Positions 7,130 through 7,303 are shown, numbered from the stretch's first letter. The stretch: DNA of 64,000 bases from Candidatus Uhrbacteria bacterium (GCA_026395055.1 JAPLZK010000004.1:18805-82804); one strand, 5' to 3'. Notes: generated by a model from the sequence alone, not told the origin. Translations and numbers: made by a program.

Positions 7130-7154
7130 ATCATAATATGCGTTTCTTGTCAAG
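7130..7154 (-). promoter_or_regulatory. Promoter-like box TTGACAAGA-N9-TATGATAG (minus strand), twin of 7274-7303
   Basis: The minus-strand sense reads cTTGACAagaaacgcatatTATGATAGagt. The -35/-10 literal spacing is 12 nt; the alternative -10 TAGAGT is at 17-nt spacing. Confidence 0.45.
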
Positions 7155-7273
7155 GGTTTTGTCAGAACATGTCAGACAGTTTATTTTTTTGAGGAAAATA
7201 TTGTTTGTTTGAGATTACTTTACATTTTTCTTCTCTCAATTTAGCAATATAGTGTCTATATGCGTTGTATCCC

Positions 7274-7303
7274 TTGACAAGATCAAAATGCTATGATAGT
7301 CTT
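7274..7303 (+). promoter_or_regulatory. Promoter-like box TTGACAAGA-N9-TGcTATGATAG (extended -10), plus strand
   Basis: cTTGACAagatcaaaaTGcTATGATAGtct; it diverges from the 7130-7154 box across an AT-rich 120-bp spacer. Confidence 0.45.

What the first reader, a model, noticed from the sequence alone, without database searches (positions are those of the whole stretch)
7130..7303. Back-to-back near-identical promoter-like boxes (TTGACAAGA-N9-TATGATAG) in an ORF-free region upstream of the Ro60 ortholog
Two 27-nt boxes share the sequence cTTGACAaga-N9-TATGATAG-t, one on each strand, and face away from each other across an AT-rich spacer of about 120 bp. Neither points into a protein-coding gene: the left one reads into 600 bp of ORF-free DNA ending at an intrinsic terminator, and the right one reads into 1.5 kb of ORF-free DNA ending at the rsr start. 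Taken literally the -35/-10 spacing is 12 nt, which is atypical. A 17-nt-spaced alternative -10 (TAGAGT/TAGTCT) exists in both. The shared extended core could also be an operator duplicated with each promoter.
Basis: seen in the sequence. Interest (0 to 1): 0.7.

Follow-up and report, generated by a model that had tools for sequence, protein, structure and literature searches.

The report
Twin promoters for two Ro60-linked RNAs
The two boxes are very likely a conserved pair of back-to-back bacterial promoters that make two large, undescribed non-coding RNAs next to the Ro60 (rsr) gene of an uncultured Uhrbacteria-type bacterium, one with Y-RNA-like modules and one carrying two tiny three-codon reading frames.

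Summary
The boxes lie at 7125-7153 (-) and 7274-7302 (+). They read best as TTGACA-N14-TGnTAnnnT: a sigma-70 promoter with a 17-nt spacer and an extended -10. That form occurs 9 times in the window against 0.04 expected, once 14 nt upstream of RNase P RNA.

The divergent pair recurs in 14 related rsr loci (Rsr 52-93% identical). Only the -35, TG and TA...T positions are conserved, so the shared "AGA-N9-TATGATAG" core is not an operator. Two conserved dyads sit in the spacer instead.

Both flanks are non-coding: substitutions show no codon periodicity. They match no Rfam family, including YrlA, for which a positive control worked.

- **Right RNA (~1.5 kb):** it holds covarying ~100-145-nt modules with a Y-RNA-like GGCCGAAU motif. 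It ends at a terminator 44 nt before rsr.
- **Left RNA (~0.6 kb):** it carries two Shine-Dalgarno-AUG-(1-4 codons)-stop mini-ORFs, 23 observed against 0.5 expected across loci.
- **Neighbour:** a TrmB-family gene is always adjacent.

No transcript or binding data exist. I file this as a new variant of Rsr-associated ncRNA loci.

The parts
7125..7153 (-). Minus-strand promoter: -35 TTGACA (7153-7148), 14 nt, TG (7133-7132), A, -10 TAGAGT (7130-7125). Predicted start near 7119-7121.
   Evidence: pattern 9 observed vs 0.04 expected. Conserved in 14 loci.
7274..7302 (+). Plus-strand promoter: -35 TTGACA (7274-7279), 14 nt, TG (7294-7295), A, -10 TAGTCT (7297-7302). Predicted start near 7308.
   Evidence: Conserved in 14 loci; TAGTCT itself is kept in 7 of the 14 right-hand promoters. 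Below the threshold of the simple scan because the -10 matches only 3 of 6.
7154..7273 (.). AT-rich 120-nt spacer with candidate regulator sites: mid-spacer dyad TTGTTTGTTTGAGATTACTTTACA (7201-7224) and CTCAATTTAGC (7235-7245; family consensus CTAAATTTAGC).
   Evidence: the palindrome lies at exactly -39 from the plus -35 in 9 of 14 loci and at -40 in a tenth. The TTTGT..ACAA dyad recurs mid-spacer.
6520..7121 (-). Left non-coding RNA, about 0.6 kb.
   Evidence: No codon periodicity. About 70% nt identity to L001/L024. Fold z-score -2.9 on this strand vs -1.2 on the other. No Rfam match.
6999..7020 (-). Mini-ORF unit 1: AGGAGG (7020-7015), AUG (7010-7008), AAC GGC, UAG (7001-6999). Peptide MNG.
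6701..6724 (-). Mini-ORF unit 2: GGAGG (6724-6720), AUG (6712-6710), GCA GGG, UAA (6703-6701). Peptide MAG.
6529..6552 (-). Intrinsic terminator of the left RNA (hairpin followed by a T run).
   Evidence: Equivalent hairpin in L001.
7308..8788 (+). Right non-coding RNA, about 1.5 kb, modular.
   Evidence: RNAalifold on 4 genomes gives 218 pairs, 48 with compensatory double changes. No codon periodicity. No Rfam match.
7904..8043 (+). Y-like module M2 (P1/P2/P3), with GCCGAAUG at 7916-7923.
   Evidence: CM R1 114.8 bits. Fold z-score -5.4. Pair counts.
8170..8267 (+). Y-like module M3 (GGGCCGACAGGUAGGGUUUCAUCA ... GGCCUUGCCGA ... CCUCGCCC).
   Evidence: CM R1 73.4 bits. Repeat family D1.
8755..8788 (+). 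Intrinsic terminator of the right RNA, 44 nt upstream of the rsr ATG.
   Evidence: conserved in groups A and C.
8832..10385 (+). rsr (Ro60 ortholog). Its SD lies in a covarying hairpin at 8817-8828.
   Evidence: TROVE, vWA_Ro60.
5740..6480 (+). TrmB-family regulator gene, convergent with the left RNA. Candidate regulator of the promoter pair.
   Evidence: Orthologs at 47-85% identity in the same position in 12 loci.

Best explanation
The two boxes are a conserved pair of divergent sigma-70-type promoters: a perfect -35 TTGACA, a 17-nt spacer, and an extended -10 of the form TGnTAnnnT. Each drives a non-coding RNA gene, and together with a TrmB-family regulator gene and rsr they form a four-part cassette in Uhrbacteria-type (CPR) bacteria.

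The plus promoter makes a ~1.5-kb modular RNA (about 7308-8788). It contains at least two ~100-145-nt three-helix modules whose 5' strand carries a Y-RNA-like motif, GGCCGAAU followed by GRYRGGG-WUYCWUC. The RNA ends at an intrinsic terminator 44 nt before rsr. No promoter is visible in that gap, so rsr is probably expressed by read-through, which would give excess RNA over protein. I infer that the modules are Rsr-binding sites, so that the RNA acts as a multi-site Y-RNA-like scaffold.

The minus promoter makes a ~0.6-kb RNA (about 7121-6520) that carries two Shine-Dalgarno-AUG-(1-4 codons)-stop mini-cistrons. I infer that these load ribosomes.

Two conserved dyad-symmetric sites in the 120-nt spacer are inferred to be bound by the adjacent TrmB-family protein, which would control both promoters together.

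Shown by comparative sequence analysis: the conserved promoter positions, the non-coding nature of both flanks, structure covariation in the right RNA, the enrichment and frame conservation of the mini-ORFs, and the synteny. Inferred only: transcription starts, Rsr binding, translation of the mini-ORFs, TrmB binding, and read-through into rsr.
For: **Promoters**
- TTGACA-N14-TGnTAnnnT occurs 9 times in the window against 0.04 expected. One copy ends 14 nt upstream of RNase P RNA.
- The divergent pair is present in 14 loci, with 105-128 nt between -35 starts. Only TTGACA, TG and TA...T are at least 85% conserved over 28 promoters.

**Non-coding flanks**
- No long ORFs and no codon periodicity, against p = 7.6e-64 for rsr.
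- Terminators close both RNAs.

**Right RNA**
- 48 of 218 predicted pairs carry compensatory double changes among 4 genomes.
- Module M2 folds with z = -5.4.
- CM R1 hits only the plus strand upstream of rsr. Non-seed hits reach E = 7e-12, 3.6e-6 and 2e-5. There are no hits elsewhere in 410 kb, and none in Herpetosiphon, Allosphingosinicella or phage Ro loci.
- 95.6% of helix cells are paired against 35-56% in slid controls, and 8 of 14 pairs change on both sides.
- GCCGAAUG at 7916-7923 fits the published Rsr-associated motif GNCGAAN0-1G (PMC4201824).

**Left RNA**
- 23 SD+AUG+1-5 codons+stop units were found against 0.53 expected. None lie on the opposite strand, and right RNAs hold 1 against 2.6 expected.
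- There are one to three units per RNA, two in most. In-frame stops are kept although ORF length varies by whole codons. Control frames rarely have nearby stops.

**Cassette**
- A TrmB ortholog is adjacent in 12 loci even where IleRS is not.
- The layout persists at 46% Rsr identity in L031.
- The spacer dyads are conserved in position.
Against: - No transcript, start-site or binding data exist for any of these uncultured genomes.
- The plus -10 (TAGTCT) matches the consensus at only 3 of 6 positions, and the simple promoter scan did not list it.
- Covariation support for the left RNA is weak: 20 of 119 pairs, with a covariation term of +3.75.
- The CGAA part of the motif is present only in two of the four sequence groups. 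The others have CGUUU, CGACA or CCACAAG.
- No tRNA-like domain is present and there is no YrlA or Y_RNA hit.
- The module CM finds nothing in the 44-46% Rsr clade.
- All loci were retrieved through Rsr, so I did not test whether these RNAs also occur without rsr.
- The pair counts were made on an alignment fitted to the model.
Confidence: 0.7

Rival explanations
1. The right RNA is mainly a cis-acting leader or attenuator of rsr. On this view it is a very long 5' UTR whose folding, or Rsr binding to it, sets read-through of the terminator at 8755-8788, rather than a trans-acting Y-RNA-like partner. This rival is not exclusive with the main explanation.
For: The terminator lies 44 nt before the rsr ATG. 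No promoter-like site is seen between 7303 and 8832 on the plus strand. The rsr SD sits in a conserved covarying hairpin. The same layout is found in the minimal 0.45-kb version in L029.
Against: The length ranges from 0.45 to 4.7 kb through duplication of modules, which is not typical of an attenuator. Module copy number varies between 1 and 3 or more. A perfect -35 plus an extended -10, the form also used for RNase P RNA, suggests an abundant stable RNA.
Confidence: 0.25
2. The boxes are duplicated binding sites (operators) for a regulator such as the adjacent TrmB-family protein. On this view the 27-nt shared core is the recognition element and not RNA polymerase contacts.
For: In the window and its closest relative L001 the two boxes share more than the hexamers (TTGACAAGA, TATGATAG).
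Against: In 12 further loci the extra shared bases are not kept, while TTGACA, TG and TA...T are. The same extended form occurs at 7 other intergenic places in the window, including upstream of RNase P RNA. Separate conserved dyads exist in the spacer.
Confidence: 0.05
3. The left transcript is an ordinary regulatory leader or micro-peptide mRNA. On this view the mini-ORFs act as leader peptides that sense translation, or the tri- to penta-peptides are themselves the product, with no functional link to Rsr.
For: The SD, AUG and in-frame stop are strongly conserved, and the third codon is usually Gly. Minigenes are known regulatory or toxic elements that sequester tRNA (PMC2490762, PMC8708949).
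Against: No gene lies downstream for a leader to control. The RNA runs into a terminator that faces the 3' end of the TrmB gene in every locus. Peptide identity is not conserved (MNG, MAG, MGGA, MTG; MSD and MFD in L031). Linkage to rsr holds from 93% down to 46% Rsr identity.
Confidence: 0.15
4. The ORF-free DNA is decayed coding sequence or a mobile-element remnant, and the inverted boxes are its terminal repeats.
For: The boxes form a 29-nt inverted repeat. rsr has a deviant GC content.
Against: The layout is conserved across many genomes, with compensatory base-pair changes, no codon periodicity and terminators in place. Only the promoter positions of the repeat are conserved. One viral-contig scan with the group A/C module motif gave a single hit, inside a long ORF and not recognised by the module CM.
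Confidence: 0.03

Closest known systems
Bacterial Y RNAs (YrlA/YrlB of Salmonella, Yrn1 of Deinococcus; Rfam RF02553) encoded next to rsr
   Same: The ncRNA is encoded within 4 kb of rsr and on the same strand. The stem-junction-stem module is about 100-145 nt. Its 5'-strand motif GCCGAAUG fits GNCGAAN0-1G and resembles the vertebrate GGUCCGA. Several units occur per locus (PMC4201824).
   Different: The units are embedded in one 0.45-4.7-kb transcript. No tRNA-like T/D domain is present, and there is no YrlA or Y_RNA covariance-model hit at E <= 10, although the model detects a phage YrlA. The CGAA motif is not universal. The RNA lies upstream of rsr behind its own strong promoter, and a second divergent RNA accompanies it.
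Minigenes / mini-ORFs (phage lambda bar-type minigenes; regulatory minigene in the axe-txe operon)
   Same: A Shine-Dalgarno sequence, an AUG and an in-frame stop after 1-4 sense codons. Known minigenes act through ribosome loading and peptidyl-tRNA drop-off or tRNA sequestration (PMC2490762, PMC8708949).
   Different: Here two units sit on a dedicated, terminated 0.35-0.7-kb RNA paired with an rsr locus. They are conserved across a bacterial clade and have no downstream cistron.
Extended -10 (TGn) sigma-70 promoters of stable-RNA genes, arranged divergently with a shared regulatory spacer
   Same: A consensus -35, a 17-nt spacer, TG at -15/-14 and TAnnnT. The same form precedes RNase P RNA in this window.
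   Different: Nothing unusual in the promoters themselves. The unusual part is what they transcribe.
TrmB-family regulators that bind dyad-symmetric sites
   Same: A TrmB-family HTH gene lies beside conserved dyads between the promoters.
   Different: The dyad sequences (CTAAATTTAGC; TTTGTnCAn-N5-nTnnACAAA) are not, to my knowledge, the published archaeal TrmB motifs. Binding is untested.

Membership tests
Sigma-70 promoter with extended -10 | -35 hexamer close to TTGACA | tested here: met
   6 of 6 in both boxes. TTGAC is invariant and the sixth base is A in 26 of 28 related promoters.
Sigma-70 promoter with extended -10 | 16-18 nt spacer to a TAnnnT -10 hexamer preceded by TGn | tested here: met
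   A 17-nt spacer to TG-A-TAGAGT and TG-A-TAGTCT. TG, TA and the final T are at least 85% conserved over 28 promoters. The plus -10 matches only 3 of 6 and was not listed by the consensus scan.
Sigma-70 promoter with extended -10 | Transcription initiates about 7 nt downstream of the -10 | not testable with these tools
   No transcript data are available. Indirect support: the same motif ends 14 nt upstream of the RNase P RNA model start.
Bacterial Y RNA (YrlA, RF02553) | Encoded within about 4 kb of rsr on the same strand | tested here: met
   Modules at 7904-8043 and 8170-8267 with rsr at 8832. All CM hits lie on the plus strand upstream of rsr.
Bacterial Y RNA (YrlA, RF02553) | 5' motif GNCGAAN0-1G (putative Rsr contact) | tested here: inconclusive
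   GCCGAAUG at 7916-7923 fits. M3 has GCCGACAG. The motif is kept in groups A and C but replaced in groups B and D.
Bacterial Y RNA (YrlA, RF02553) | tRNA-like domain (T and D arms) recognised by the family covariance model | tested here: not met
   No YrlA or Y_RNA hit at E <= 10 in window 6400-8900 or in L029. ARAGORN finds nothing there. Positive control: YrlA is detected upstream of a phage Ro gene at E = 2.3e-5.
Bacterial Y RNA (YrlA, RF02553) | Mature size 80-130 nt | tested here: inconclusive
   The modules are 98-140 nt, but they lie inside a ~1.5-kb promoter-to-terminator unit. Processing is unknown.
Bacterial Y RNA (YrlA, RF02553) | Binds Rsr/Ro60 | not testable with these tools
   Requires RIP or EMSA.
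Minigene / mini-ORF | SD 4-11 nt upstream of a start codon, with an in-frame stop after at most 5 sense codons | tested here: met
   23 observed against 0.53 expected. Frame is kept while length varies by whole codons.
Minigene / mini-ORF | Actually translated (ribosome loading, peptidyl-tRNA release) | not testable with these tools
   Needs toeprinting or ribosome profiling.
Known large bacterial ncRNA classes held in Rfam 15 | Match to the family covariance model | tested here: not met
   No match at gathering score in the window or in 6 related loci. No relevant match at E <= 10.
TrmB-family operator | Conserved dyad-symmetric site positioned relative to the regulated promoter, next to the regulator gene | tested here: met
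   CTAAATTTAGC lies at -39 from the plus -35 in 9 of 14 loci and at -40 in a tenth. There is also a mid-spacer dyad, and TrmB orthologs are adjacent. Binding itself is untested.

The most novel reading that the evidence does not exclude
The cassette may be a previously unrecognised ribonucleoprotein system of CPR/Patescibacteria. In this reading Rsr works with a giant modular scaffold RNA that carries several Y-like Rsr-binding modules. A dedicated partner RNA engages ribosomes on two 3-5-codon mini-cistrons. Both RNAs would be co-regulated from one TrmB-controlled divergent promoter region, coupling RNA surveillance or decay to the translational state of the cell.
Probability: 0.25. Interest if true: 0.85.

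Novelty: new variant of a known kind. Interest (0 to 1): 0.68.

Why it matters
Ro60/Rsr works through its partner RNAs, and so far bacterial partners are known only as ~100-nt Y RNAs with a tRNA-like domain. This locus suggests that a whole clade of ultra-small, uncultured bacteria uses something different. One candidate partner is a kilobase-scale modular RNA with repeated Y-like units. The other is a second RNA built around two ribosome-loading mini-ORFs.

CPR genomes are generally compact, so 2.3 kb of conserved non-coding DNA with strong promoters is costly and probably important. The anatomy defined here makes the question testable with metatranscriptomes and simple in-vitro assays. It comprises the promoter positions, terminators, module consensus, mini-ORFs and candidate operators.

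The locus also gives a clean comparative definition of the housekeeping promoter form in these organisms.

Tried and rejected
1. **Literal TTGACA-N12-TATGAT promoter.** Rejected: the conserved positions fit a 17-nt spacer with TGn.
2. **The box as a duplicated operator.** Rejected.
3. **Rfam.** Nothing relevant at gathering score or at E <= 10 in the window and related loci. The YrlA positive control worked.
4. **Hidden protein genes.** Rejected on ORF content and the lack of codon periodicity.
5. **The resemblance of the rsr start region (GGACCGAAUGA, 8825-8835) to the module motif, and the long-range complement 7747-7771/8814-8838.** Judged coincidental. Other clades have GGAUCGCCAUG there, and the conserved feature is a small SD hairpin.
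6. **The mini-ORF as a purely structural hairpin with AUG in the loop.** This holds in group A only and is not universal.
7. **RNAalifold on the left RNA.** It gave only weak covariation.
8. **MAFFT plus RNAalifold across module groups.** It recovered only helix P2, so P1 had to be specified by hand, and P3 was left out of the model.
9. **CM R1 sensitivity.** It does not reach the 44-46% Rsr clade, and group D only marginally.
10. **Viral-contig scan for the module motif.** One hit, inside a 1115-aa ORF and not recognised by the module CM; I read it as chance.
11. **Literature searches** for Ro60 or Y RNA in Patescibacteria/CPR found nothing relevant.

Full report
**1. Observation**

The sequence holds the two boxes exactly as described. 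TTGACAAGAaacgcatatTATGATAG lies on the minus strand at 7128-7153. TTGACAAGAtcaaaatgcTATGATAG lies on the plus strand at 7274-7299. Even allowing 3 mismatches, only 0.11 matches per window are expected by chance. The boxes are the arms of a 29-nt inverted repeat, and 120 nt of AT-rich DNA lie between the two -35 hexamers (200-nt windows across it are 34-37% GC).

To the left lie a TrmB-family gene (5740-6480) and IleRS. To the right, rsr (8832-10385) has TROVE and vWA_Ro60 domains. The stretches 6520-7124 and 7303-8831 contain only short ORFs. They are more GC-rich (0.51-0.60) than the neighbouring genes upstream of the locus (0.39-0.51).

**2. What the boxes are**

Read as TTGACA-N14-TG-n-TAnnnT, both boxes are sigma-70 promoters with a 17-nt spacer and an extended -10. 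The consensus scan lists the minus one (10 of 12 matches, TG present). It misses the plus one because TAGTCT matches only 3 of 6.

This exact pattern occurs 9 times in the 64-kb window against 0.04 expected. One copy ends 14 nt upstream of the RNase P RNA gene. It is therefore the standard strong promoter form of this organism.

**3. Comparative test**

Rsr homologs led to related loci in Candidatus Uhrbacteria and similar MAGs. The closest genome-collection locus is MGEI01000005 (L001), with Rsr 93% identical.

In all 14 distinct loci with enough upstream DNA (Rsr 52-93% identical), a minus/plus pair of this promoter form sits upstream of rsr. The -35 starts are 105-128 nt apart. Over the 28 promoters only TTGACA, TG, TA and the final T are at least 85% conserved. 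The 'AGA', the N9 and the 'TA' before TG vary.

This result does three things. It settles the spacing question in favour of 17 nt. It removes the idea that the shared core is an operator.

A short conserved GTTCG follows about 5 nt after each -10 in many loci, on both sides. It is unexplained, and may mark the start of both RNAs.

**4. The spacer**

Two position-conserved dyads lie between the promoters.
- CTAAATTTAGC (window CTCAATTTAGC, 7235-7245) lies exactly 39 nt upstream of the plus -35 in 9 of 14 loci, and at -40 in a tenth.
- A mid-spacer TTTGTnCAn-N5-nTnnACAAA-type dyad lies at window 7201-7224.

A TrmB-family ortholog (47-85% identical) lies in the same convergent position in 12 of the loci, even where IleRS is not the neighbour. 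The inference that this protein binds the dyads is reasonable but untested.

**5. Both flanks are non-coding**

Against three homologous loci, substitutions show no 3-nt periodicity in the right block (p = 0.62) or the left block (p = 0.34). The rsr CDS gives p = 7.6e-64. Intrinsic terminators close the left unit (6552-6529, minus) and the right unit (8755-8788).

Rfam 15 gives no hit at gathering score in the window or in six related loci, and nothing relevant at E <= 10. As a positive control, the YrlA model (RF02553) finds a Y-RNA-like element upstream of the Ro gene of Mycobacterium phage Sparky at E = 2.3e-5.

**6. Right RNA**

An alignment of window 7303-8300 with three homologs (66-78% nt identity) gives an RNAalifold structure of 218 pairs. 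Of these, 48 keep pairing through changes on both sides.

The RNA contains repeated units (GGGCCGAaUGAcGGGGUUUCAUCA, three copies). Each unit has this architecture:
- a lower stem P1;
- a junction carrying GGCCGAAU;
- stem P2 (GRYRGGG paired with CCYUGYC);
- a variable apex;
- a hairpin P3;
- CCUCGCC closing P1.

Module M2 (7904-8050) folds into this shape on its own, with z = -5.4.

A covariance model built from 11 units hits only the plus strand upstream of rsr, and only in this clade. Hits in loci that contributed no seed units are L027 (7e-12), L003 (3.6e-6), L016, L005 and L019. Weaker hits fall in L006 (2e-5) and L002. Nothing else is hit in 410 kb, including Herpetosiphon, Allosphingosinicella and phage Ro loci.

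On the resulting alignment, 95.6% of helix cells pair against 35-56% when the partners are slid, and 8 of 14 pairs change on both sides. That alignment is fitted to the model.

GCCGAAUG (7916-7923) fits the motif GNCGAAN0-1G that Chen et al. associate with Rsr binding (PMC4201824). However, the CGAA is replaced in two of the four sequence groups, and there is no tRNA-like domain.

Right-RNA length ranges from about 0.45 kb (L029) to 4.7 kb (L005) through internal duplications.

**7. Left RNA**

Every left RNA carries one to three copies, two in most loci and three in L025, of AGGAGG-N4-11-AUG-(1-4 sense codons)-stop. In the window these are MNG (AUG 7010-7008) and MAG (AUG 6712-6710).

Over 13 loci I count 23 such units against 0.53 expected from shuffles. 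There are none on the opposite strand, and right RNAs hold 1 against 2.6 expected.

The ORFs differ by whole codons (MNG, MHG, MTG, MGGA, MGGM, MGGGC, MGGIG) and use all three stop codons. The +1 and +2 frames rarely have a nearby stop.

A hairpin that places the AUG in its loop exists in the window's group but is not universal. The conserved feature is therefore the linear SD-start-stop layout, which points to ribosome engagement.

Overall structure support for the left RNA is modest. The fold z-score is -2.9 against -1.2 for the other strand. Covariation is weak.

**8. Breadth**

A more distant clade (Rsr 46% identical, L031) keeps the layout. It has TrmB, a minus promoter, two 3-codon mini-ORFs (MSD, MFD), a plus promoter 222 nt away, and 1.2 kb of ORF-free DNA before rsr. 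The module CM does not score there. A 36%-identical Rsr (L033) has neither TrmB nor the gap.

**9. Mechanism**

Most likely, two strong divergent promoters are co-regulated through the spacer dyads by the TrmB-family protein. They would produce two RNAs:
- a modular RNA that acts as a multi-site Y-RNA-like partner or scaffold for Rsr, and that delivers a little rsr mRNA by terminator read-through;
- a partner RNA that loads ribosomes on two mini-cistrons.

What the second RNA does is unknown. Options include sensing translation status, sequestering ribosomes or tRNA as minigenes do (PMC2490762, PMC8708949), or presenting a substrate or platform to the Rsr complex.

The comparative anatomy is shown. 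Transcription, binding and translation are inferred.

**10. Comparison, novelty and limits**

The promoters themselves are ordinary. The RNAs are not members of YrlA or of any other Rfam family. The right RNA works most like a Y RNA by position, motif and stem-junction-stem design, so I file the locus as a new variant of Rsr-associated ncRNA systems. The mini-ORF RNA has no counterpart I could find.

All loci were found through Rsr, so exclusivity of the linkage is untested. The genomes are uncultured MAGs, and no expression data were available.

Noticed in passing
window 42048-42644 (-): RNase P RNA (class A) spans 555 nt for a 367-position model, so it carries large insertions. A canonical TTGACA-N14-TGgTATGCT promoter ends 14 nt upstream of it.
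   Followed up: partly
window 60104-60180 (-): tRNA-Ile with anticodon UAU, which is unusual in bacteria.
   Followed up: no
window 8832-10385: The rsr CDS is 0.57-0.63 GC over most of its length, against about 0.39-0.51 in the genes upstream of the locus. This is either a compositional island or strong constraint.
   Followed up: no
window 8817-8828 and 8755-8788: The rsr Shine-Dalgarno sequence sits in a small hairpin, (G/A)UCC-N3-5-GGA(C/U), that covaries between clades. A terminator lies 44 nt upstream of the ATG, with no promoter between them.
   Followed up: partly
window 7160-7178: A direct repeat TGTCAGA-N5-TGTCAGA lies beside the minus-strand -35. It is kept only in the closest relatives (L001, L024).
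   Followed up: no
window 7115-7119 (-) and 7308-7312 (+): Both RNAs begin with a similar GTTCG(C) a few bases after the -10. This is kept in many loci on both sides and is unexplained.
   Followed up: partly
window ~11836 (-) and ~12717 (-); also L001 12513/13704 and L027 3941/4829: A repeated element, CAAGGGGCCGA-hairpin-TCGGCCAAGGGTTG, occurs downstream of rsr on the opposite strand. It may be a terminator or another small RNA.
   Followed up: no
L025 6500-7100; L003 and L005 right regions: The right RNA has expanded to 2.6-4.7 kb by tandem and dispersed internal repeats. One gene caller placed a 201-aa ORF on the opposite strand just beyond the L025 repeats, still within the ORF-free right RNA; it is probably spurious.
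   Followed up: partly
L031 5170-7010 (GCA_039740555.1): A distant clade (Rsr 46% identical) keeps TrmB, a minus promoter, two 3-codon mini-ORFs (MSD, MFD), a plus promoter and 1.2 kb of ORF-free DNA before rsr. Its spacer is 222 nt and contains a different dyad (TGGCAC-N5-GTGCCA).
   Followed up: partly
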